Shown piece after piece: positions 8,013 through 57,200 of a stretch of 64,000 bases of DNA. The stretch's first letter is position 1. Each line of letters opens with the position of its first letter. This DNA is from Eledone cirrhosa (lineage: Eukaryota), in NCBI GenBank assembly GCA_964016885.1, contig OZ024752.1:14384001-14448000 (forward strand), read 5' to 3'. A model generated the notes under the pieces. The model was not told the origin of the DNA, searched no databases, and worked only from the letters and a program-made list of their open reading frames with translations. The translations under genes and the position numbers were made by a program.

Positions 8013-9625
8013 CTATTGGGGTGATAACCCGTTTAGTTTTGGTTTAAATTTGTTAAGGAATAGATTTTCTTTGTTTATTCTTTGTTGTTGTGTGAACGAA
8101 TCTGAGCACTTGTAGAAGGGGAAGATTTTAAAGTTGGGTAGTGTCATTCCTGCGCAGTTCGCAATATGGCTGCTCAAGGGGATTTTTCTTGTGTTAGCGT
8201 CCCGGATTTGTTGGCGGTGGATGGTCATTCTTTTGCGTAATGAGGTGCCCGTCTGTCCTATGTAGTTGTGTTTGCACCCACCGCAAGTTATTGCGTAAAT
8301 CAAGTTCTCCGAGTTGCAGGTGAAATTGTTTTTTACTGTAAATGTTTGGCCATCTTTGAATGTAAATGTTTGTCCTTCAGTGAGGTAGAGGCACGTTCCA
8401 CAGTTTGTTCTACCACATTTGGTAACTGTAGGGTTGAGGATTGGTTTGGGTATATTTGGTCCAGTGAGAATGCGTTTAAGTGATTTGGGTTGTCTTTTAC
8501 TTTTAAGGATCTTGTGTGTTTCAAGAATAGACTTCATTTTTACATCTTTAAGTAGGATGGGGAGGTTTTTGTGTAGGTGATCAAACATTTCGGTATTTCT
8601 GGGGTTGAAAGTGGATACATATGGCAGGGTGTTGAGTGTGGTTTTCTGTTTTGGATTGTTAAGTTGATGGGGATTTAGGTGTTTTGCCCTGTCTATTCCA
8701 TTGTTGATTATTTCAAGTGGAAAGGCTCTTAAGATAAGGGTGTCTTTTAGTTCCTTTAGTCTTTGCTCCCGTTTAGGTGGATCTGATACTATGGTACATA
8801 TACGTTTGGCCAAATTGTAAGGAATGTTAAGTTTTGTATGTTTTGGGTGACTTGATGTGAAAAAGAGGTATTGCTTGGAATCTGTGGGTTTATAGAATAT
8901 ATCTGTATCTAATTTCCCGTCTATTACAGAGATGAGAATATCCAAGAAGGCTAATTCCTTAGGATTGGATTCCATTGTGAATTGTATGTTATTATCTATG
9001 TTGTTTATCATGTTTTTAAACGTAGTAAGTGAGTTCATGTCTTCTTGCCATAGTATAAAGCAGTCGTCTAGATATCTTTTCCAATTGGCTTTGAGGTGTG
9101 TGTGGAAAGAGTCTCCAAATAAGAGAAGGGACTGACTGTATATTTGTTGTTCATGGAATCCCATGACTAGGTTGGCATATGTGGGTGCTACTTTCGTGCC
9201 CATTGCCGTACCTGATACTTGTCTGTATGTTGAACCATTGAATGTGAAGTAGTTATTTTGTAGGATAAAGCGGAGTCCGTCAGTGATAAAATCTGTGTTG
9301 ATGCGTGTCGGTATTTCTGATGGGTGTGTGTTAAGCCAGTATTGGACTGCTGTTATTCCATAGTTGTGGGGTATGTTTGTGTAGAGGTTTATTACGTCAA
9401 AGGAGACAAGAATTGTATTTGCACTTACTGTTTTAGGGAGGTGTTTCAGCATGTCAAGGTCATCTCGTATGTAGCTCTGTATATGTTGTAGAAAGGGTTT
9501 CAGTAGGATGTCCAGAAAGTTGCTAAGTCTGTGGGTTTCACATGTAGGGCCTGCTATAATTGGCCTGAGTTTTAGGTCTTCTGGTGGTGTTAGTTCAATG
9601 TAATTGTTGGTTGAGGTGTCACATG
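8013..9625 (-). CDS. PLE reverse transcriptase + GIY-YIG endonuclease (N-terminally truncated, uninterrupted frame)
   Basis: LKLRPII upstream of the listed Met; [56 protein letters not shown] motifs. Confidence 0.95.
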
Positions 9626-9734
9626 CATCATTTTTTATACCCTTTATTATTTCCTTACCTTATAAAATTATGTTTTTTCACAAAAAAGTATTCTGTCTCT
9701 TATATATTCCATGTGCCATTACCAACCTCAATTT

Positions 9735-10864: not shown

Positions 10865-11321
10865 CGATATTAAACAAATGGAAACTATATTTATAAAACC
10901 ATATTTATTTCATTATACATATTTCAGAGATACCATATTAAAAATTAAAAATATGGCATGCCTTCGTCAGATAAAATACAATATATAAAATGTTTTATAA
11001 ATAATTTTGACGTACCATAATATAAGCGACCATTAAAATAGGAGGCTGCACTACCAAGGCAGCCTCCTATTTTAATGGTCGCTTATATTATGGTACGTCA
11101 AAATTATTTATAAAACATTTTATATATTGTATTTTATCTGACGAAGGCATGCCATATTTTTAATATGGTATCCCTGAGATATGTATAATGAAATAAATAT
11201 GGTTTTATAAATATAGCTTCCATTTGTTTAACATCGTATATCTACTCCAAAAACTTGTCGAGTGCTTTATATCAGTTATAAAATATTTACTTGTTGTAAC
11301 CCAACAATTTTAAATAAAACT

Positions 11322-12439: not shown

Positions 12440-12550
12440 TTATATATATATATATATTTATATATATATTTATATATATATATTTATATATATATATGTA
12501 AGTATGTATGTATACGTACATACATATATGTATACAGACGTACAGTAGCA

Positions 12551-12594
<44 letters not shown>

Positions 12595-12910
12595 TACACA
12601 TATGCATACAGGTACACATACATATATGCACGCATCAGTTTAGTCGACGTTTATTATAACGCCGGCCGCTTTGTTCGTTTGTTTGTCAACAAAGCGAACA
12701 GCTAAATGATAGCTAACAAGCTTGAAACTAGTACATCGTTCCTGTGTCAGTGTTGAACAAAAAGGTGACGTGGTTCCTTAACACCATATGGCATAAATTC
12801 AGGCTGTTCGCTTTGTTGACAAACAAACGAACAAAGCGGCCGGCGTTATAATAAACGTCGACTAAACTGATGCGTGCATATATGTATGTGTACCTGTATG
12901 CATATGTGTA

Positions 12911-13026
<116 letters not shown>

Positions 13027-13179
13027 TGCTACTGTACGTCTGTATACATATATGTATGTACGTATACATACATACTTACATTTAAGTAAGTGCCATACTA
13101 AGAGTGAGAAATGAAATTTCGTTTTCATTTTTTTCAACTTATCGTTTTCGGTATGCCTGACCGATTTAACTCACTCAAT

Positions 13180-13227
13180 ATGCAAATTAGGCTGCTCAGC
13201 CGTTAATTTTCATAAGGAAAGTATATA
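13180..13227 (+). promoter_or_regulatory. octamer (ATGCAAAT) + PSE-like block, putative snRNA-type promoter; repeated at 13694
   Basis: tATGCAAATtaggctgctca...TAATTTTCATAAGGAAAGTATATA, conserved in diverged family I. Confidence 0.45.
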
Positions 13228-13261
13228 CTTCCGAACGTTCAACTATCTGGCAGATGGGTAA

Positions 13262-13304
13262 ACGGTGCTGATGATAGCTAACAAGCTTGAAACTAGTACA
13301 TCGT
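13262..13304 (+). ncRNA. canonical minimal type-I hammerhead ribozyme
   Basis: acggtg-CTGATGA-tAGCT-aaca-AGCTt-GAAA-CTAG-TA-catcgt; all three stems pair. Confidence 0.9.
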
Positions 13305-13476
13305 TCCTGTGTCAGTGTTGAACAAAAAGGTGACGTGGTTGCCTTAACACCGTATGGCATAAATTCAGGCTGTTCGCTTTGTTGACAAACAAACGAACAA
13401 AGCGGCCGGCGTTATAATAAACGTCGACTAAACTGATGCGTGCATATATGTATGTGTACCTGTATGCATATGTGTA

Positions 13477-13540
<64 letters not shown>

Positions 13541-13775
13541 TGTTACTGTACGTCTGTATACATATATGTATGTACGTATACATACATACTTACATTTAAG
13601 TAAGTGCCATACTAAGAGTGAGAAATGAAATTTCGTTTTCATTTTTTTCAACTTATCGTTTTCGGTATGCCTGACCGATTTAACTCACTCAATATGCAAA
13701 TTAGGCTGCTCAGCCGTTAATTTTCATAAGGAAAGTATATACTTTCGAACGTTCAACTATCTGGCAGATGGGTAA

Positions 13776-13818
13776 ACGGTGCTGATGATAGCTAACAAGC
13801 TTGAAACTAGTACATCGT
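13776..13818 (+). ncRNA. canonical minimal type-I hammerhead ribozyme
   Basis: Identical to 13262-13304. Confidence 0.9.
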
Positions 13819-13981
13819 TCCCGTGTCAGTGTTGAACAAAAAGGTGACGTGGTTGCCTTAACACCGTATGGCATAAATTCAGGCTGTTCGCTTTGTTGAC
13901 AAACAAACGAACAAAGCGGCCGGCGTTATAATAAACGTCGACTAAACTGATGCGTGCATATATGTATGTGTACCTGTATGC

Positions 13982-14024
<43 letters not shown>

Positions 14025-14135
14025 TGCTACTGTACGTCTGTATACATATATGTATGTACGTATACATACATACTTACATTTAAGTAAGTGCCATACTAAG
14101 AGTGAGAAATGAAATTACGTTTTCATTTTTTTCAA

Positions 14136-14241
<106 letters not shown>

Positions 14242-15227: not shown

Positions 15228-15541
15228 TATGTATGTATAAGTACATACATATGTGTATACAGACGTACAGTAGTATGTATATATATACATACATGCACAC
15301 ATATATATATGTACGTATGTGTTTACCGAACATTTATTATAATGTTCGGTTTGTTTGAAACATTATAATAAATGTTCGGTAAACCCATACGTACATATAT
15401 ATATGTGTGTGTATGTATATATATATATACATACTACTGTACGTCTGTATACATATATGTATGTACGTATACATATATTCTTACATTTAAGTATCAGCCG
15501 TACTAAGAGTGATAAATGAAATTTCTTTCCATTCTTTTCTA
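15225..15541. mobile_element. palindromic relative of family E
   Basis: Inverted arms centred about 15355; shares actgtacgtctgtatac and ttaag..tactaagagtga..aatgaaattt with E. Confidence 0.8.
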
Positions 15542-21129: not shown

Positions 21130-21980
21130 ACATATGGATAGAGTAACCTATGATGACTTGATAATCAGAGAACTTAGAAAAAGCTACAGGAAAACTACAC
21201 AGGCCAACCTGGATTTAATCAACACGGAGGCCAATAGCATCATGACCTAACTGGGTATTGAAGATAAAACTGAGCCCTTCCATCCTATAATTCCGAGGAT
21301 TTTATTGAAAGCCCACAAATTAAACTTTGAATCATCAAAACCTGTCATGCTCATAGACCCTTCGAAGTCGGACATATGAATCATGAGTAAAAACATCCTT
21401 GATAAAATAATCCCCACTCTAGTTAGGAGATCGAAGCTTAAATTATGGTCAGGAACTAGTGAGGTAATTAACTGGTTTGTGAAATCGCAGAATAAGAATA
21501 GCACTAAGTTTATACAGTTCGATATCTCTAACTACTACTCTTCGATCTCGCCAACTCTTCTAGGTAAGGCCCTAAATTTGCTAGCTTACACACCGACCTT
21601 ACATCTGAAGAAATTAACATTATTCTCCTAGCTAGGAAAACCTTAATTGAGTTCAACAGTGACTTGTGGACTAGGAGAGATTGGCCGGACAATTTCGAGA
21701 TCATCATGGGATCAACGGACTCAGCCCAAGTGACGGATCTGGTGGGCCTCTACTTCCTCGACTGTCTCGGAGTGGAAATACCCCATTTGGGAGGTGGCGC
21801 TTACCGTGACGACCTTTTGTTTACTGTGTCGTTCCATAATAATAGTATGGTAGAGAGGGTGAGGAAAAAACTAAGCAAATTCTTCAACAACATAGACTTA
21901 AGTATAGTGTTTGAAGAAAACCTGAAGATAGTTAATTTTCTAGATGTTACACTTAACCTCACTTCAGGACTCTTCCAACT
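21130..21980 (+). pseudogene. decayed PLE reverse transcriptase (Hydra-like clade)
   Basis: SKNILDKI..EVINWF..FIQFDISNYYSSI; MGSTDSAQVTDLVGLY; YRDD; VNFLDVTLNL; stops and frameshifts. Confidence 0.85.
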
Positions 21981-21981
21981 C

Positions 21982-22572
21982 TGTGTCGCTGCACATGTGC
22001 TACTCTACATGAACTCAGAACGTGTTCCACTCTCTGTCTACCATGGCAAGGATAGGGCACTAAGTGTTACCTGATTTGGGCAGGTAACACTTAGTGCATA
22101 AGTTCGTATTCGAAAGTATTCTAGCTGAAACACTTCTAGCCCATCTAGATATTCTAAAATGTATTCTAGCCCAGACAATCTAGATATTCTAAAGTTTATT
22201 GTAGCCCAGACACATCTAGATATTCTAAAATGTATTCCAGCTCAGACATATCTAGATATTCTAAAAGTTATTCTAGCTCAGACACATGTAGCTCAGACAC
22301 ATCTAGCTCATCTAGCTGAGACACTTCTAGCCCATCTAGAATAAATTTTAGAATATCTAGATGTGTCGGGGCTAGAATAAATTTTAGAATATCTAGATGT
22401 GTCTGGGCTAGAATAAATGTTAGAATATCTAGATGGGCTAGAAGTGTCTCAGCTATACGAACATATGCAGTTGGGCAAATCAGATAACACTTAGTGCCCT
22501 ATCCTTGCCATGGTAGACAGACAGTGGAACACGTTCTGAGTTCATGTAGAGTAGCACATGTGAAGAGACACA
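21982..22572. mobile_element. fold-back element with ~100 bp TIRs and internal ~33-bp minisatellite
   Basis: 21982-22080 = revcomp of 22475-22572; ctagcccagacacatctagatattctaaaa repeats switch orientation near 22340. Confidence 0.75.
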
Positions 22573-22666: not shown

Positions 22667-25600
22667 CAGAGGACACGTACTGTTCCTCTCTGACAGATAA
22701 CCCCTCCGGAAAACCCCCCAGTTGATGGATGCAAATCCGAAATATAGGGACAATTAAATCTCTCACAAGGTAACTCTATCTCGTGTTATTTTTATTTGTT
22801 ACGCTCTTTCCTACATTCCTCTACACATTATACATCTCATTCTACATTCCCTTACATCTCTCTCTCCACCACCGGATCCTGTTACCCGGAGACTTAGCAA
22901 TCTGCATTGTTGAGGCCACCAAAGCGACCAAAGAAGATAAATCTTATTATTCCACAATGCTTCAAGCAAACTTCAATACTTTCTTATCCTTACACCTGAG
23001 CCAGGAATTGTTTGTATCCGTAAGGGAACTGTTTAGACTGTCGGAAAAATGGGCCAATGTTGGCTGTCAAATTATTTTCCTGAAACGCTGCCTAAAAAAC
23101 GATGTCATCCCCACCACCATCAGGAACATCCGCTTACCAGGATGCCTACGTACACCAGCTTTTCAAAACACCGCTAGCCGCATAAACCGCTCGTGTATCA
23201 AACAGATCCTGTGACATCTCAACCGCCAATTATACATCCATAAGCGGACACTCTCAGAGCGGACACATCGACAAACAATAACACCCGTCGGCTTGTCCTT
23301 AAAATCACAAAAGCAATCGACCAATGCTACCACTCCAGAGTCCAACACGAAAAATGAAACGGCTCAAGCGGCAATATGAGTGGATCTTGTTTAAACTCCA
23401 CAACGAAAACACCGACACTAACAAACAGACAGACCAGAACCACGTGAAAAACAGCAACGTAACAACTGCCGCCGCCACATCCACCAACAATGAGCCACAC
23501 CTGAACGATGCAACGCACCTGGTCACCTACCTAACCGGCACCCTCACGAACGACGCGCAGGAACTCCTACGCCTCGGACCCAAGTTCATCGTCTCACAGC
23601 GACTCGACGACAGACTCAAACTCGACATCGAAGCTAACTCATGTCGAGCCGCCTACCAACTTAAATGGGTGACCGCCATCAACAACGCCACTGAAAATAA
23701 CAGCGCCCACACAACCCACCCCAATTCCCCTACTTACCACCTCGACAACCCACTCCACCCCCACCCACCAACCACGAACTCGACACTAAACTCATCAGGT
23801 TAAAACTCGCCATCTCTGATATCCTACACAAAACACACACACACGCACAACACACAACCTCACTAAATCTCAACTCACCACTCTCTCCAACCTGAAATCG
23901 AAGAACCTCATCTACCTCCCCTCCGACAAGGGAAAATAATTCTGCGTCATAACCACAGAGGTCTACAACACCCTGGCCTTCAACACCTTGACGATGACAA
24001 CCTCTACTCCAAAGTCACAGGAATCACTCCCGCGCAGATCGAGGATCACATCAACGCCGGCTGGACCAACATCTGTGACCGGCGGAAGCTCCCGAAGATG
24101 CTCAGATACAACCTCCTCACGAGGAACAACAGACTACCTACCTTGTGAAAACACACGAAGAGGGACCTGACCTGAAGATCAGACCTATCGTATCGAGCGT
24201 GGAAGAAGCGCTCTACAAAATTTCATGGCTCCTAGCCAGAATACTCAAACCCATACAAGACACCTTGCCGGGACACGTAAACAGCTCCGCGAAGGTGTTG
24301 GAGTGCCTGCATCAAATGGATCCTGACACTAGAAAGGCTAACAGATATGCCTTCAGCCTTCATGTGGTCGCTCTTTACACCTCGGTCCCGGCGCTCCTGG
24401 CCGTTGATATACTGATGGAATGCGTTCAATCTACCGACTTACACTGCTTCGGGCTCACCCCCACTGACATCTATCAACTCCTATCCGTCGTCGTTGACAA
24501 CACGTACTTCAGTTTTCTCGACCAAACATACCGGCAAACCTCGGATCTGCCCATGGGCTCAAGCCTGTCGGGTGTGCTAGCGATCTCATACATGGACAGC
24601 CTCGAGCACCAGGTACTCAACACCTGCCACCCCAACGCCATCACCTTTTTCTCAACGTACGAGGACGACATCGTCATCCTCACATCTTCCCAGGAGATGG
24701 CGAACGGAATTCATGAGACGTTCAACAACACGGACGAGAACATTGATTTCAATGTTGAACACCCCAGCGACGACGGGTCACTTGCCCTCTTCGACTTCCG
24801 AATCAACATCACGCAGCAGGGAGGGGTCCACACCAACTTCTACCGTAAGGCAGCCTGCAGGGACTTGTTCGTTCACTACAAGTGCGCCCTGCCTAACAGT
24901 GTTAAAAGAGGGGACATCACGAACCAGATCACGCGAATTAAATACAGATGCAGCGATCCCGTGAGTGGTGTCACCCACACCAAGCGATTCCTCAAAGTGC
25001 TAGAGACGAACGGGTGCCCATCCTCGCTCACAAACAGAATAAGGGACACCAAACGCAAGAGGCAGAGAAACACCCAAGGGAAGTGCTCCCTTAAAATACC
25101 ACACCTGGGCGAAAATACCACAAAGGCTATCCACAGGGCTATACGGAGAGAGGGCCTCGACATCCACCTGGCCCACTCGGGCCCCTCCCTGCGGAGATGC
25201 CTCTCCAGGAAACCCCGGAAATCGATTGTCGCGTGTTACCTCAGAAACTGCCCGATGCGCCATACGAACTGCTGCTTACACACATACGTTGTATACAAGG
25301 TAGAATGTGACAGGTGCAACCACTACTATGTTGGTAGCACAATCCGGCCGCCACATATCCGGATCAAGGAGCACATCAATACCAGGGCCTCGTCTTTCCT
25401 GAAACACATAACCAAATGCGGAAACAAAGACGGAAGGCCGATTGTCACAGTGCTAGTGACAGAACGCAACGTCGGCACGTTACGAACCAAGGAAGCACTT
25501 TGGATCAAACGCCTAGGACCAAAAATAAATAACCGATCCGGGAGAAGCGAGATGAGCTGGTTGGTATAAACAAACGAGACAACAACACACGCGCACACAC

Positions 25601-26559: not shown

Positions 26560-28070
26560 TGAATTGTTTCCTATGAACATAAGTTACACGCATGGCGTCC
26601 TCCCCTGTATGATTTAGACCTGGTAATTAAGATCCAAGTAAGATTGTATGTTATGTTGTTATTTGGAAGTCCCATATGTAGTCCGAAAGTGTAGTGTTAT
26701 GTGGCCGGGCCGGGTTTCGGATCATATGTCGGTGTTGGTAGAGCCGGGTCTGAAAGCCACAAGCGGTTAAGACTATATAGGCTTTGTTGGAGTTTTCCGT
26801 CCTCACGTTGCATTGGTAGATCACCATACGTTCTCGACATTTGTTATTGAGGGGGCACGTAAATCTATCAGGGTAGTTACACCTCCTGGTCGGCTCTCCA
26901 CTAATGTCTAGGTTGTTTCTTCGATAGGAGTTGAGTTACTTGTTGTTTGAGGGGGCAATGATTTGTGTGAAGTTGGGTGTGGTGCTGTAAGAGAGTTTGA
27001 TAGTGTTTTTATTGATTATGTTGTGGTAGCGGTGTTGTGGTGGGAAGTCTTTTTGGAGGAGCCTAGAGGAGATTTTCCCGATTGGTGTTGCCCCTTCGGC
27101 ATTGTAGGGTAGATTAAACCAAGTTACGTGGTGTGAGCGACGGCGTCGCCTGCTGGTTCCGCTAAGGGAAGCTGGATAAAAGGAGATTTCCTCCTGAAAG
27201 CCACTTCGCTTGAAGGCCTGGTTGTAATAAGGCATATGTTCATCGAATATCTCCTCATTAGCGGACAAACGAGATATGCGTAGGGAGATGTTTTTAACCA
27301 GGTTATTGATGATGTTTCCAAGGTGGTTAAAGTGGCGGTGGATGTAGTGAAGATTATCGTTTGGCTTCCTGAATGGGTAGTACAGATCATTTTTCAGGTT
27401 GAGAGTAACGTCCAGGAAATTGACTCGGGTTAGGGACGTTTGTAGGGTGATTTTAAAATAGTTGATTAGTTGGTTACGGACCCTGTCTGTACTACTAGGT
27501 TGTACCCCTTGAGAGTAAAGAGCCCATCGTCTCGGTACAATCCACCGCCGAATGCAGGAAACATTTCGGTGAGTTTGTGTAGTAGGAATAATGCTATAAG
27601 ATCGCTCACCTCAGCCGAGTCAGTCGCGCCCATAGTGTCGTCGAAGGGGGAGTGAGAGCTCCCTTTATCCACTTGGAGTTGTCGAAAAGGAGGACTGTCG
27701 TTCTGGCATGGAGAATGGTGTTTCTTTCCTGGTCGGTGATAGGTGTGGGTGTTTTGGCAAAGACCAAAGCGGCCGTAAGGAGCGGTAAGGTAATAGAGGC
27801 GCAATAGCTCTCTATGTCTAACTAAATGAAATTTAGTGTCCCGTTTGTCCTCAATATGGCTGAACCATGGGATGACCTCCTGGGTGCTGACACAAAGGCT
27901 AAATCTCACGTTTTGCTTAACTTTTGGTATAACGCCGTCTAGGATCTTTTTACTGATTCTCCCTATGTCCAACTTCGTCGGTTTATAAGCATAATGGATG
28001 GTTTGCGGTCGAAGTCGGATTTATGGTCCTACAGGCTGAAGTAGGGACTCCGTGGGTCAAGAGGTTCAGT
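26560..28070 (-). pseudogene. decayed Hydra-like PLE (RT + GIY-YIG)
   Basis: DIGRISKKILD, FDDTMGATDSAEVSDL, GLYRDDGL, TWFNLPYN, IKLSYSTTPN, CPLNNKC..VIYQC. Confidence 0.88.
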
Positions 28071-30279: not shown

Positions 30280-31585
30280 ATATAGAGGTAGAACACTGGA
30301 AGGTAATATCGGTAGTGGTAAAGCACTCAGTCCATGGGACGAGTTAGGTAGAAGTAGTTACACAACAGTTAGTTCACCATACCGAGAACAATTGTTTCAC
30401 CTTAGCATATCCTCAGCGCGTAATGGGCATTGTCATATGGAACTGTTTTTAGAAACTTCGTAAATAATATCAGTACTAGAATCTCAAACCTCTCTTCTAA
30501 TAACGCTATATTTGACAGGGCGGCATCCTACTATAATACGGCGTTAGCTAACAGCGGCTCCTCGCAACAGATCACTTACTCTCCCACTATCAACAACAGC
30601 AATAAGAAAAGAAAGCGTAATAATAGACAATCTATCTGGTTCTCTCGTCCCTTCTCATTCAATGTAGGGAAAACATTTCTAGCCCTCTTAGATAGACGCT
30701 TTCCCATAGGTCATAAATACCGCTCCATCTTTAACCGACACAATGCAAAACTGGGATACTCCTGCGCTATGAACATAAAGGCCCACATCACCAACAGCCA
30801 TAAGAACAACACCCCACCAGGGTGCTCTTGCCCTAAGCCCGAAGTTTGTCCATTTCAACAGCAATGCAACACACCCACTGTAATTTATGAAGCTGTGGTC
30901 ACTTCCAACCGACCAAATCCACCACAGGAGGTCAAATCCTATGTAGGCATGGCGGAGGGCCGATTAAAGGAACGCTACCTGAACTACCAGTCGACCTTTA
31001 GGTACCCGGACAAACGTTCATCCGCGAAACTCGCGAGCACGTATGGTCCCTCAAGGACTCAAGTAAAGACTATTCCATTCAATCGAAAGCCATCACTAAG
31101 TCCAAGCAATACGCAAGGCGAAAACCGTCTTTGGACTATGTATTGATGAAGGAATAAATATTCTAAAGAGATTATGCAATAGTGATTGCCTAAACACGAG
31201 AAATGAATGTTTTACACGTTGTCCACACGTCTCAAAACACATATTGCATAACTACAAAGCTCCGGGTTGAATTTATTGTCACAACATCATCATTTTCTTA
31301 TCAACTAAAAACTTTTGGGACTATCGCAGTTATCTCCCTTACACCTCTCGCACGCATTTTAGTATTGCCTGTGTGAAGTGACCGGTTTCTGCGCATGCGC
31401 GTTCCTACATTTGTCCTTCCTATTCCGTATAACCATGTCCATTACGAGCTGAGGATCCGCTAAGGTGAAAAAATTGTTCTCGGTATGGTGAACTAACTGT
31501 TGTGTAACCACTTCTACCTAACTCGTCCCATGGACTGAGTTGTCTACCACTACGGATATTATCTTCCAGTGTTCCACCATTATAT

Positions 31586-36688: not shown

Positions 36689-36942
36689 CATACATATTAT
36701 ATATGTATGTATATATATATAATTAAGTTAAAAGTGTACATCCACATATGTATACTGAAATACTAGTATGGATATAAATACACACACGTATACATATGTA
36801 CATGTACCGAGTTTTTCACTGGACACTTTAATGTGAGTGTCCAGCTAGTCTGTATGTAACCAAACAGACAAACCGGGTTTTAGAGTCATACGGGTTTTCA
36901 AGGAAACACCTTTCCTCTATGCTCCAGAGAGCCAGACAGGAA

Positions 36943-36983
36943 TATTGGACTAGTTTCGATGTTATTACATCTCATCAGCAATA
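36943..36983 (-). ncRNA. canonical minimal type-I hammerhead ribozyme
   Basis: tattg-CTGATGA-GATGT-aata-ACATC-GAAA-CTAG-TC-caata. Confidence 0.92.
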
Positions 36984-37031
36984 TATACCCATCTTCCGGC
37001 TTCTCTAGAGAATCGTAAAAGCACATATCGT

Positions 37032-37078
37032 TATATGCTTTTTCTATGAAAATTAGTAGTGGGCAGACTAATTTGCAT
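37032..37078 (-). promoter_or_regulatory. octamer + PSE-like block (also at +468, +936, +1404)
   Basis: Minus strand ATGCAAATtagtctgccca..TAATTTTCATAGAAAAAGCATATA. Confidence 0.45.
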
Positions 37079-37410
37079 AGAACGTGAGTTGTACGCACCG
37101 GTTCAGCGGAAACGATAAAAACAAATAACGAAACGAAATTAAATTTCGTTTCGTTTGTAACTCACTTTCGTATGACTGACGCTTAAACAATTAAGTTAAA
37201 AGTGTACATCCACATATGTATACTAAAATACTAGTATGGATATAAATACACACACGTATACATATGTACATGTACCGAGTTTTTCACTGGACACTTTAAT
37301 GTGAGTGTCCAGCTAGTCTGTATGTAACCAAACAGACAAACCGGGTTTTAGAGTCATACGGGTTTTCAAGGAAACACCTTTCCTCTATGCTCCAGAGAGC
37401 CAGACAGGAA

Positions 37411-37451
37411 TATTGGACTAGTTTCGATGTTATTACATCTCATCAGCAATA
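37411..37451 (-). ncRNA. hammerhead ribozyme, unit 2
   Basis: Identical to 36943-36983. Confidence 0.92.
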
Positions 37452-37878
37452 TATACCCATCTTCCGGCTTCTCTAGAGAATCGTAAAAGCACATATCGTT
37501 ATATGATTTTTCTATGAAAATTAGTAGTGGGCAGACTAATTTGCATAGAACGTGAGTTGTACGCACCGGTTCAGCGGAAACGATAAAAACAAATAACGAA
37601 ACGAAATTAAATTTCGTTTCGTTTGTAACTCACTTTTGTATGACTGACGCTTAAACAATTAAGTTAAAAGTGTACATCCACATATGTATACTGAAATACT
37701 AGTATGGATATAAATACACACACGTATACATATGTACATGTACCGAGTTTTTCACTGGACACTTTAATGTGAGTGTCCAGCTAGTCTGTATGTAACCAAA
37801 CAGACAAACCGGGTTTTAGAGTCATACGGGTTTTCAAGGAAACACCTTTCCTCTATGCTCCAGAGAGCCAGACAGGAA

Positions 37879-37919
37879 TATTGGACTAGTTTCGATGTTA
37901 TTACATCTCATCAGCAATA
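37879..37919 (-). ncRNA. hammerhead ribozyme, unit 3
   Basis: Identical to 36943-36983. Confidence 0.92.
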
Positions 37920-38346
37920 TATACCCATCTTTCGGCTTCTCTAGAGAATCGTAAAAGCACATATCGTTATATGCTTTTTCTATGAAAATTAGTCGTGGGC
38001 AGACTAATTTGCATAGAACGTGAGTTGTACGCACCGGTTCAGCGGAAACGATAAAAACAAATAACGAAACGAAATTAAATTTCGTTTCGTTTGTAACTCA
38101 CTTTTGTATGACTGAGGCTTAAACAATTAAGTTAAAAGTGTACATCCACATATGTATACTGAAATACTAGTATGGATATAAATACACACACGTATACATA
38201 TGTACATGTACCGAGTTTTTCACTGGACACTTTAATGTGAGTGTCCAGCTAGTCTGTATGTAACCAAACAGACAAACCGGGTTTTAGAGTCATACGGGTT
38301 TTCAAGGAAACACCTTTCCTCTATGCTCCAGAGAGCCAGACAGGAA

Positions 38347-38387
38347 TATTGGACTAGTTTCGATGTTATTACATCTCATCAGCAATA
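38347..38387 (-). ncRNA. hammerhead ribozyme, unit 4
   Basis: Identical to 36943-36983. Confidence 0.92.
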
Positions 38388-38639
38388 TATACCCATCTTC
38401 CGGCTTCTCTAGAGAATCGTAAAAGCACATATCGTTATATGCTTTTTCTATGAAAATTAGTAGTGGGCAGACTAATTTGCATAGAACGTGTGTGTATTTA
38501 TATCCATACTAGTATTTCAGTATACATATGTGGATGTACACTTTTAACTTAATTGTTTAAGCGTCAGTCATACAAAAGTGAGTTACAAACGAAACGAAAT
38601 TTAATTTCGTTTCGTTATTTGTTTTTATATATATATACA

Positions 38640-52819: not shown

Positions 52820-54310
52820 TTGTTATGCTTTGGGAGGGTCATGTTGCCAATAAGAAACACACGCACCAGTCGTTTTCACTCCAACCGGACGGTTGTTCAT
52901 ATATTGTCAAAGTTCTTTCGTCACACATTCTGTGACCTCTTCAGTGATCCTCCATTCCCATTATGCCAAACCCATGATTTCCAAATAACTGATCCACCGA
53001 AACTCAGCTGTTTCGGACCCCCACCAAAATCAACATACTGATTGCGGATTTGGTACGGGTGATGAGAAACGTGTGCCGCATGTGCAACACCAAAGAACAA
53101 GAGAGACACATACAACACTTCATCCACCGTATGCAGTTCTCTGGTTACAATCAGAGTGATAAAATCAGAGTATATAGAGGAGCCAGAACCAAATGGGAAA
53201 AAATAGTAAATAATGATACAAACGGGACCTGCCCCTTGTATAGAGGCAAATTTTAGAATAGAATAGAAAGAACTATGAATAAGGTTAATAGAATAAAATC
53301 ATAGCAATAAATACCAGCATGATAGCAATAAATACCAGAGTGTAATGTTCATCAATACAACCCCTAGAAGTGAATTAGCTTACACATTTAGAAGGGCCCT
53401 AGATAAACATAAACTCAATATTAAGATAGTAGAAAGACAAGGTACCTCCATATAAACACTTATTAGCAATACATACCCTTTTCAAAGACCTCCCTGTATA
53501 GATAAGAAATGTATAATCTGTAAACTAAGCCCCCATATTAACTGTAAAACTAGAAATGTAGTATATAGCATAAGATGTACTGAAGGACAATGTAGAGATA
53601 AGAATATAGTGTACATAGGTGAGACAGCTCGTAGTATAGGAGAACGGATAAATGAACACTGGCGAGAGCTTCAATATAGAAAAGAATCATCTGTACTCCA
53701 CCAACATGCTAAAATAGAACACAAGGGTAAATTAGAGAACATAGAAATAAGAATAGAATCTACACACAGAAAAGACGCAATGTTTAGACAAATGACAGAG
53801 GCAATAAAGATAAATAAACTCCAACCAAAATTAAATAGAAAACATGAATGGAATAGCAACATCACAACTAACAATTAAGGACAAAATGTAAACACACACA
53901 CACATAGAACAAACAACCAACCAGAAAGATGTAAATAAACAAATAAATAAACAAATATAAACACACACAGATACCCGGAGGTAACACATGCGCAAACTAA
54001 GCACACAACACACACAAAAACAAGATGGCATAGGACAGAACAAAGGAGAGGCACAAAAACAAAGAAAAGAATCCCCAGTCACTGAAGAGATCACAAAATG
54101 TGTGACGAAAGAACTTTGACAATATATAAACAATCATCTGGTTGTGGAACCAACCATCCAACCGGAAATTTATAAATTCTTAAATTTATAAATTTAATTT
54201 ATAATAAATTGGAGTGAAAGAAACTGGTGCGTGTGTTTCTTATTGGCAACATGACCCTCCCAAAGTAAAACAATATAGGTATCAACACACGGTTTCACAT
54301 AAAGAATCTT
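52820..54310 (+). mobile_element. 5'-truncated PLE (family G, Nematis-like) with inverted arm; decayed ORF about 53040-53878
   Basis: RMQFSGY, PLYRG, NCKTRNVVYSIRC, YIGETARSIGERINEH; 52820-52948 = revcomp of 54078-54273 with an indel. Confidence 0.88.
54078..54120 (+). ncRNA. minimal HHR (mirrored at 52906-52948 -)
   Basis: gtca-CTGAAGA-g(a/g)TCACA-aaatg-TGTGAc-GAAA-GAAC-TT-tgac. Confidence 0.75.
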
Positions 54311-55575: not shown

Positions 55576-56104
55576 ATATATATATAGAGAGAGAGAGATA
55601 ATTTAATATATCTACTAACATAAGCGCACAGATGTACGCCAATGCCAGCAAATACACAGGTTATGTCATAGTACCTAGGTGGTTCAATGCAGGAGGATGC
55701 AGAACAATAATATAAAAGACGTAAAATAAGAAAATTGTAAAAACAAATTTTTTTAAATTAACTTACTTACTTAAATTTTCACTCCAACTAATTAGTTTCT
55801 GCAATGGGATAAAGACAGTTACGTAATGAACTGTTGAGAATTTCATTGCGTCATCAGGGAGGTCTATTCTCAGCCAAGTCTCCTGGCAATGCGCGGACAC
55901 TGGGGACTCATATAAAAATAATAATAATTCGGTAAATGGAACAGCTATCGAGGACTGGATTCCAAGCACTGAAAATTCTCGCTGCCACTGGTCAAATGGC
56001 CGATTCTAAAGAATCAATCACGTGACACTGAGGCTAGTCGGTAGGAATGGGATGGTAAGATGACAGACGCCTACTAATGTACTATCGAATCGGATAGACA
56101 GAAG

Positions 56105-57200
56105 TGGTACTATGTGGGATCTACAGCCACCTCCTTCAAATCACGCCTTTATAGACATCGTTACTCGATAACACATGAAAACCAGCGTTATGTAACAACA
56201 CTCGCAGACAAGGCTTGGCAGCTGCGTGAAAATAACCAACAATTTGACCTAAAATATAATAGCGGCTGCCCCCCCCCCCCCCCCCCCCCCCCTAATTCCC
56301 ACGGACAGGAATTTTGTAAATTATGTAATGTCGAATTATTTTGTATTATGAAATCCAAAAACATTTTATTAAATAACAGAATAGAGCGATCGTTATACTG
56401 TAACCATCGCTTAAAATCTACATTTTCATATTATAAATACTACCAGGATTGAACGCCTGTCTCTATCCCCGTTTGATTGTCAAAATAGATATTAACATTC
56501 TCTATTAGTCTTAATTCTATCAACTCTTCTATTATTTACCATTTAATATAAACTGCTATAGATAAAATGAGATTTCTGATTTCTTAATTCAATTCCCTAA
56601 TGCATATACCAGCTGGCTACTAGCATTGACGTTATTCAGTAACAATCGAAATCTCCCCCTTCCCCAATTGACACTTTATAATTAATACTACTACACCAAA
56701 TGACCAGCCATGTCCACTGTCCAATTGGTCAAGTAGAGATTAAAATTGGCACTCCCAAAAATTCTTATTTAGATAAAATGAACCATTTACTCATGGTATT
56801 CTCATTAGAAACCCTTTATATACTTGATTAGCAGTAAATTGAATTACCATCTGTCATATACTATCCCATCTCTTCTTCCTCTATTACTAATATAAATACT
56901 TCAATTTGTCTGATTTTATCCAATTTATCCAAAATCTCTGAAGAAGTGACAACTGATTATACATTTGCTATCGAATACTTGCTAACATTATATGATTACG
57001 CAAGCAGCGGCACATAGGTATTCCGTCTGTTACAGAAACATATGTCAATACCTAATAAATTCCTTTTAAATAAAAGCACTTTCATTTTATATTCATCTTT
57101 TCTACATTTTCTCCGGAATATAATTTATACTCGTTGAGCAAACCTACACGTACGCTGTTCATCTCTAACGTAACGATATATTATCACTACATTATTGATA
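56105..57200 (+). mobile_element. 3' part of a Hydra-like PLE (GIY-YIG remnant 56105-56452; HHR-like 56938-57046)
   Basis: YVGSTATSFKSRLYRH..TTL..W..CKLCNVE..LLNNRIE..CNH; CTGAAGA-GTGACA...TGTTAC-GAAA-CATATG-TC. Confidence 0.75.

What the first reader, a model, noticed from the sequence alone, without database searches (positions are those of the whole stretch)
13075..13260. Both HHR arrays share a conserved octamer + PSE-like cassette upstream of the ribozyme: a possible snRNA-type promoter
Seen: families E and I are otherwise hard to align but share, in order, ttaag..catac..agtgag..gaaattt..cgttt..ttatcgttt, then aactcac, tATGCAAATtag(g/t)ctgc(t/c)ca, TAATTTTCATA(a/g)(g/a)aaag(t/c)atata, and AGATGGGTA just before HHR stem I (E 13075-13260 +; I about 37190-36986 -). 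Known: ATGCAAAT is the snRNA distal-element octamer, insect PSEA begins TAATT, and newt satellite 2 HHR repeats use an snRNA-type promoter. Inference: each unit carries the promoter for the next, giving an autonomously transcribed, self-cleaving, non-coding mobile RNA family. Caveat: the PSE-to-AGATGGG spacing differs (48 vs 61 nt).
Basis: partly seen in the sequence, partly recalled or inferred. Interest (0 to 1): 0.9.

Follow-up and report, generated by a model that had tools for sequence, protein, structure and literature searches.

The report
Self-cutting repeats carry host snRNA promoter
These are short, protein-free jumping repeats with a predicted self-cutting RNA, and each unit carries the same 12-letter box and TATA box that sit in front of the animal's own U6-type small RNA genes, so they likely switch themselves on, which this class of element was said not to do; transcription was not tested.

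Summary
The motifs are where stated. E and I are sister families of non-LTR retrozymes with Penelope-type insertion ends. The core promoter idea survives the key test: TATGCAAATTAG (13179-13190) fits the box found at -76 to -79 in 7 of 7 host U6/U6atac/MRP/tRNA-Sec genes and 0 of 8 U1/U2 genes, a TATA follows, and two further hammerhead families (Y, Z) keep box and TATA. Three parts are reassigned: the 'PSE-like' TAATTTTCATA is an inverted copy of the box, not the host PSE; AGATGGGTA is ribozyme stem I; 13082-13147 lies between two preferred insertion ends (likely Penelope tail). Against a plain U6 promoter: box-to-TATA spacing is 42-45, not 46-48; copies run through T-tracts; 0 of 54 truncation points mark the predicted start; no RNA data. 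Best reading: a compact snRNA-class promoter giving read-through RNA, polymerase open (lean Pol II). Precedent: newt satellite 2 (seen only through citing papers). This scan noted the same on other DNA of this genome.

The parts
12493..12702 (-). Inverted 5' piece of the family E insertion (unit positions 118-347)
   Evidence: L044
12706..14140 (+). Family E array: 5'-truncated unit starting inside the ribozyme core, one full 514-bp unit, last unit ending at unit position 405 on (TA)n
13082..13147 (+). Block shared by E and I that lies between the two preferred 3' ends of insertions; T4 13122-13125 and T7 13128-13134; distal end site at 13142. Likely Penelope-type tail / RT start region (inferred), not promoter
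   Evidence: tail concept from PMC11167929
13179..13190 (+). 12-bp box TATGCAAATTAG, identical to the upstream box of host U6 (L002) and both tRNA-Sec genes
13196..13200 (+). TCAGC, weak match to the host U1/U2 proximal core TCAG(T), 26 nt before TATA as in U1/U2
   Evidence: score 2.2 vs 11.3-14.2 for host; background 0.9%
13203..13214 (+). The 'PSE-like' box: imperfect inverted copy of the 12-bp box (hairpin 3' arm or second inverted site); varies between subfamilies
13222..13229 (+). TATA box, 42 nt after the octamer start
13247..13314 (+). Type I hammerhead with extended stem I; AGATGGG at 13252 (also TATA+30, the predicted start); core from 13268; predicted cut after 13298 (GUA); U-U mismatch at base of stem II, 2-bp palindromic stem III
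   Evidence: read from sequence
13693..13812 (+). Second E copy of box, TATA and ribozyme core
36721..38493 (-). Family I array, 468-bp unit, 3.8 copies, four hammerheads, 3' end on (TA)n
37030..37079 (-). Family I box (37079-37068), inverted arm (37056-37045) and TATAAC (37035-37030), last unit
36925..36997 (-). Family I hammerhead (weak Rfam HH9 match, 32.9 bits, below the 52-bit cut-off); predicted cut after 36948 (GUC)
38486..38628 (+). Inverted 5' piece of the family I insertion

Best explanation
E and I are sister families of tandem hammerhead repeats whose units carry the host's U6-class 12-bp box and a TATA box, which likely form a compact snRNA-class promoter that starts RNA about 30 nt after the TATA, just ahead of the ribozyme. 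Shown: box identity with host genes, TATA, conservation in four families, tandem arrays, 5' truncation/inversion, two fixed 3' ends on (TA)n. Inferred: the RNA reads through the T-tracts and the next unit's promoter (lean Pol II about 60:40, because the geometry is 4-5 nt shorter than host Pol III genes and equals U1/U2 core-to-TATA spacing, and no U1/U2 3' box is present); the hammerhead cuts it into units (linear or circular); a Penelope-like reverse transcriptase/endonuclease starts at one of two sites flanking 13082-13142 and copies more than one unit, so a new insertion brings an upstream partial unit that supplies the promoter for the next. The inverted arm would keep the promoter sequence paired in the RNA or add a second weak binding site.
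For: Box at -76..-79 in 7 of 7 host U6 (3 distinct promoters), U6atac, MRP, tRNA-Sec (2) genes, in 0 of 8 U1/U2 and 0 of 2 RNase P/7SK. E and I score as high as the best host sites; such a score occurs at 4.6e-6 per position in 1.2 Mb of evenly spaced genome, element copies included. Four families keep TATG.AAAT and an ATATA core as invariant columns while the stretch between varies; box-to-TATA 42 in 12 of 13 E, 43 in 50 of 50 I, 43/45 in 5 of 5 Z, 45 and 40 in 2 Y copies, while box-to-ribozyme ranges 77-100. Y carries the box in three tandem modules, with a strong U1/U2-type TCAGT at +16, and has no significant hairpin, so sequence is kept without pairing. No variant at 3% or more in box or TATA among 20 variable positions of E relatives, two in the 'PSE-like' arm (descriptive only, chance about 0.25). 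Fixed 3' ends: 11 of 23 listed E piece ends and 6 of 7 I piece ends at -37/-38. 7 of 16 Y piece starts lie within -4..+9 of the predicted cut (P about 6e-7), a footprint of cleaved linear RNA used as template.
Against: Spacing differs from every host box-class gene (46-48). The U1/U2 core match is weak in E and absent in I and Z. Host distal box absent from E and I units. 0 of 54 internal piece starts within 5 nt of the predicted start site (about 1.5 expected by chance, so no enrichment). The box is one arm of a significant inverted repeat in 8 of 9 retrozyme copies but only 1 of 7 host genes, so RNA structure also acts on it. E and I starts show no clustering at the cut site (0 of 29), and E's ribozyme has a mismatch at the stem II base. 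Other hammerhead families lack the box (0 of 30 HH9 loci of family X; 24 of 30 clusters). No partner PLE with a matching pLTR was found.
Confidence: 0.6

Rival explanations
1. Same promoter, but a Pol III (U6-type) one with leaky termination at the T-tract upstream of the next box (a sub-case of the 0.6 given to 'working promoter').
For: The box is confined to host genes that end in T-runs. T-runs of 4 or more are missing from the first 384 nt (E), 262 nt (I) and about 220 nt (Y) after the predicted start and cluster just before the next cassette. Many Y insertions end at the T-run.
Against: Spacing 4-5 nt short of all 7 host genes; in insects the PSE-to-TATA distance of Pol III genes is kept within 1-2 bp (PMC1761439 passages). 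E ends lie 8 nt beyond a T7 and arrays span many T7 tracts. PLE reverse transcription starts internally (PMC11167929), so insertion ends need not be RNA ends.
Confidence: 0.25
2. The cassette is kept as an RNA hairpin of the circular or multimeric RNA (stability or PLE recognition); likeness to the host box is ancestral baggage.
For: Significant dyad in E, I and Z with a partner change (T-A in E/I, G-C in Z); most E insertions span the cassette, so it is part of the template; retrozyme circles are predicted to be highly self-paired (PMC7229834).
Against: The 5' arm is invariant while the 3' arm changes freely; Y keeps and triplicates the box without a hairpin; a hairpin does not explain a TATA at fixed distance.
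Confidence: 0.2
3. A relic or enhancer-like POU site: it may bind a factor but does not set a start site; RNA comes from host read-through, as proposed for retrozymes generally.
For: PMC7761336 proposes read-through; spacing mismatch; no start-site footprint.
Against: Persistence of box, TATA and spacing across families whose other parts do not align by BLAST; young, near-identical E copies on many chromosomes imply a steady RNA supply.
Confidence: 0.2

Closest known systems
Metazoan non-LTR retrozymes (Cervera and de la Pena 2020, PMC7229834: passages and Discussion read; Li, Clavereau and Pollet 2026, 10.64898/2026.07.22.740005: parts 1 and 3 of 5 read)
   Same: Tandem non-coding units with a type I hammerhead, low GC, dispersed in high copy, co-occurring with PLEs.
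   Different: Neither text describes a promoter (0 hits for 'promoter' in the preprint; 2 hits, both T7 constructs); PMC7761336 states metazoan retrozymes seem to lack promoters. Here units are 468-514 bp and carry a host-matched box and TATA; Y ends suggest linear cleaved templates.
Newt satellite 2 (Coats, Zhang and Epstein 1994; Cremisi 1992; papers not held; seen only as cited in PMC2220036 and PMC6765202)
   Same: Tandem hammerhead repeat with an internal snRNA-type promoter, reported as Pol II transcribed.
   Different: That it uses an octamer plus PSE is recalled, not read. Here the box is the proximal element of host U6-class genes, a TATA is present, and four families share it; no transcription data.
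Schistosoma Sm-alpha hammerhead SINE-like repeats (as described in PMC6765202; primary paper not held)
   Same: Promoter ends up at the 3' end of cleaved units, so an upstream unit drives the next; single copies are dead.
   Different: Pol III promoter of SINE type (tRNA-derived, recalled); here an upstream, snRNA-class promoter.
PLE pseudo-LTRs (PMC11167929 parts 1-2 of 4; 10.1101/2021.04.23.441226 passages)
   Same: Partial tandems, inverted 5'-truncated copy, AT-rich/(TA)n targets, optional tail between two RT start sites, promoter supplied by the upstream copy.
   Different: No ORF; tail is about 55-75 nt in E/I (about 35 in Y) against 30-40; no PLE pLTR in the part seen carried the box in sense orientation.

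Membership tests
Non-LTR retrozyme | Type I hammerhead motif in at least two consecutive tandem units | tested here: met
   E two complete cores, I four; Rfam HH9 only below cut-off for I, none for E
Non-LTR retrozyme | Short, non-coding, low-GC, dispersed repeats | tested here: met
   GC 0.29-0.34; 19 E and 4 I insertions in 1.2 Mb evenly sampled; no ORF of 120 aa other than simple repeats
Non-LTR retrozyme | Self-cleavage and circular RNA accumulation | not testable with these tools
   Needs RNA; only the indirect footprint in family Y, none in E or I
Non-LTR retrozyme | Co-occurrence with PLEs and PLE-type insertion structure | tested here: met
   RT + GIY-YIG ORF in the window; inversions, truncations, fixed 3' ends on (TA)n
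Non-LTR retrozyme | Homology to a PLE pLTR | tested here: inconclusive
   None seen downstream of GIY-YIG hits in the held loci (output partly cut); only a short shared end word
Host U6-class (type 3) promoter | 12-bp box | tested here: met
Host U6-class (type 3) promoter | TATA box downstream | tested here: met
   (weaker TATAAC in I)
Host U6-class (type 3) promoter | Box-to-TATA distance 46-48 nt | tested here: not met
   42 (E), 43 (I), 43-45 (Z), 45/40 (Y)
Host U6-class (type 3) promoter | T-run terminator ending the RNA | tested here: inconclusive
   T-runs present at unit end but copied templates extend past them
Host U1/U2 (Pol II) promoter | TCAG(T) core 26-27 nt before TATA | tested here: inconclusive
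   Strong in Y, weak in E, absent in I and Z
Host U1/U2 (Pol II) promoter | Distal box near -260 and 3' box | tested here: not met
   Distal box in 7 of 8 host genes, not seen on reading the E/I units; 3' box pattern 0 hits in E and I
Insect PSEA-type element | TAATT-starting box shared with host snRNA genes at fixed position | tested here: not met
   Host alignments show no such proximal box; the word is the inverted arm and its offset varies 20-26 nt
snRNA-type promoter (any) | Start site, factor binding, polymerase | not testable with these tools
   Needs experiment

The most novel reading that the evidence does not exclude
A clade of about 90,000 retrozyme insertions runs on a re-engineered host promoter: the U6-class box placed at U1/U2 geometry with no 3' box, switching a Pol III signal into a read-through Pol II promoter that the element can carry inside its own RNA, hidden in a hairpin, and hand to Penelope enzymes.
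Probability: 0.3. Interest if true: 0.75.

Novelty: new variant of a known kind. Interest (0 to 1): 0.55.

Why it matters
Animal retrozymes are abundant RNAs in all tissues tested, yet a review states they seem to lack promoters (PMC7761336). A host-matched box plus TATA in four families gives exact bases to mutate and a predicted start site, making 'how are retrozymes transcribed, and by which polymerase' directly testable. The comparison also defines two promoter classes for this animal's small RNA genes, useful for guide-RNA expression. The idea has a precedent in newt satellite 2 and was already noted by this scan elsewhere in the genome.

Tried and rejected
RNA evidence: no RNA holder listed; the runs laid were contigs of unrecorded kind, so they say nothing on expression or ends. 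Start-site footprint from truncation points: 0 of 54. Base of the ribozyme-enclosing helix as a start marker: ranged from +47 to +82 in 12 folds, unusable. Family X (HH9 hits) as a fifth carrier: its similar-looking word fails the 12-mer test in 30 of 30 loci upstream of the ribozyme and relatives differ there; dropped. Rfam gathering search of the window: 0 hits. Search for the autonomous partner: not found. U6, U6atac and tRNA-Sec hits without upstream elements (L014, L015, L039-L043, L208, L209) were treated as retrocopies and left out of the host set; six C19 U6 copies have an insertion in the promoter; near-identical cluster copies were counted once. 33 of 48 U6, 30 of 42 U1 and 38 of 48 U2 hits were not fetched. 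The genome sample stopped at 1.464 Mb. Primary newt and schistosome papers not held. Literature searches listed no paper describing an octamer/TATA promoter in invertebrate retrozymes; subscription journals and bioRxiv supplements (retrozyme consensus tables of the 2026 preprint) were not seen and may bear on novelty. Host lineage was not determined.

Full report
1. Observation. The window is G000:C12:14384001-14448000 of a 3.0-Gb animal genome. E (514-bp unit, 12706-14140) and I (468-bp unit, 36721-38493, minus) each carry a type I hammerhead motif; Rfam gives only sub-threshold HH9 matches to I. A global alignment shows E and I homologous along the unit: box-to-TATA 82%, tail block 77%, ribozyme 75%, 3' domain 67%, linkers 59-63%. 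The cassette is real and the best-conserved segment, but it has one origin in these two families.

2. I fetched host small-RNA genes and aligned their upstream regions. Two classes appear. Class A, 7 of 7 genes (three U6 promoters, U6atac, RNase MRP, two tRNA-Sec): a 12-bp octamer box at -76..-79, TATA at -30/-31, T-run at the 3' end. Class B: U1/U2 (8 of 8) have TCAG(T) at -56..-58, no box, a strict TATA at -28..-32 in 6 of 8 and a distal box near -260 in 7 of 8; RNase P and 7SK have TCAG 32-33 nt before TATA and a T-run. The E/I 12-mer scores as high as the best class A sites; background 4.6e-6 per position. So the octamer is host-matched, but it is a proximal box of U6-class genes, not a distal enhancer.

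3. Reassigned parts. TAATTTTCATA is the reverse complement of the box with one mismatch. The dyad is significant in 8 of 9 retrozyme copies and 1 of 7 host genes; its sequence changes between subfamilies and no host gene class has it as a fixed box. AGATGGGTA pairs with the strand after the cut site, i.e. it is distal stem I. The block 13082-13147 lies between two preferred 3' ends: E at unit positions about 347 and 400-405, I at 272-280 and 349; in the unbiased sample 11 of 23 listed E ends and 6 of 7 I ends fall at -37/-38 from the box (ends at the edge of the reference were not listed). These are homologous positions and join (TA)n. With 5' truncation and inverted pieces this is the structure described for PLE insertions, whose tail lies between two RT start sites (PMC11167929; 10.1101/2021.04.23.441226). 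PLE ORFs are in the window.

4. Wider family. In 1.464 Mb (window, 200 kb beside it, 1.2 Mb evenly spaced) two more hammerhead families, Y and Z, carry the box and a TATA. They give no BLAST cross-hits with E/I. Box-to-TATA is 42-45 (one Y copy with a deletion, 40), while box-to-ribozyme varies 77-100. Y holds three tandem box modules with a strong TCAGT at +16. The even sample holds 37 insertions (19 E, 4 I, 7 Y, 7 Z), about 90,000 genome-wide by extrapolation, and 20 box+TATA+ribozyme copies in 14 of 120 stretches. The box is not universal: 24 of 30 hammerhead-like clusters lack it (some are truncated or false positives), as do all 30 loci of family X.

5. Mechanism. Most likely the box and TATA make a compact snRNA-class promoter with a start near 13252 (TATA+30, inferred from host spacing). 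Because insertions end before the box, a new copy is active only if the template spanned more than one unit, so RNA must read through the T-tracts or be circular; arrays of many units agree. The distance is 4-5 nt shorter than class A, and the +16 word sits 26-29 nt before TATA as in U1/U2, although that word is convincing only in Y, weak in E and absent in I and Z. With no 3' box this leans to Pol II read-through, as reported for newt satellite 2 (via PMC2220036 and PMC6765202). Pol III remains possible: T-runs avoid the predicted transcribed part and cluster at its end. In Y, 7 of 16 piece starts lie at the predicted cut site and 5 of 9 insertions hold only the part after it, indirect evidence of cleavage in vivo and of linear templates; E and I show no such signal (0 of 29). 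Against: 0 of 54 starts at the predicted start site, the hairpin, and no transcription data.

6. Known versus new. Membership in non-LTR retrozymes is met on all sequence-level features that could be tested; pLTR homology was not shown. It is not filed as a U6 promoter (spacing not met) nor as a U1/U2 promoter (distal and 3' boxes not met); it likely works like an snRNA-class promoter. A review says metazoan retrozymes seem to lack promoters, and seven searches listed no invertebrate case, but the newt precedent exists. Eight earlier notes of this scan on other windows of this genome reach the same reading; they are not independent support. My host comparison and the dyad were found before that look-up; the TCAG check and two papers followed from it.

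7. Verdict. Observation partly confirmed, interpretation partly supported, new variant of a known kind, interest 0.55; probability that the cassette is a working promoter 0.6.

Noticed in passing
window 8013-9659 (-): 548-aa open frame with RT and GIY-YIG domains (PLE, zinc-finger linker), with a 112-bp inverted piece at 6826-6937/9628-9739.
   Followed up: partly
window 21568-22074, 24079-25569, 26936-28020, 30424-31146, 53456-53878, 56078-56452: Further PLE-like ORF fragments, several followed by hammerhead-like cores (31449, 54082, 14619); their pLTRs show no octamer box.
   Followed up: partly
L042:1380-1620; L014:1380-1640: A U6atac retrocopy is joined to an inverted family Y piece, and a U6 retrocopy sits inside another hammerhead family; other U6atac copies follow (TA)n. 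Suggests PLE enzymes also copy U6-class RNAs.
   Followed up: no
L007, L008, L010-L013 (U6 cluster on C19): A roughly 190-bp SINE-like insertion splits the U6 promoter at the TATA in 6 of 11 fetched cluster copies.
   Followed up: no
L124, L211: RNase P and 7SK genes use the U1/U2-type TCAG core but at 32-33 nt from TATA and end in T-runs, hinting that spacing sets the polymerase in this host.
   Followed up: partly
L074-L103; L195:8600-8900; L185: Hammerhead family X (about 310-bp unit) and relatives share a different upstream layout (CAACCGCTCT ... TATAAG), possibly another promoter type.
   Followed up: no
L134-L135 (84-104 kb right of the window): A family I array of more than 40 near-identical units with an inversion.
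   Followed up: no
window 10900-11280: Inverted pair of another hammerhead-bearing PLE end (40 hits in 1.464 Mb); its 3' end word resembles the E and Y insertion ends, a lead for the mobilising PLE.
   Followed up: partly
window 15240-15533: Folded-back fragment of an older E subfamily without ribozyme; window 4018, 17701 and 18479 hold truncated copies of a further hammerhead family.
   Followed up: no
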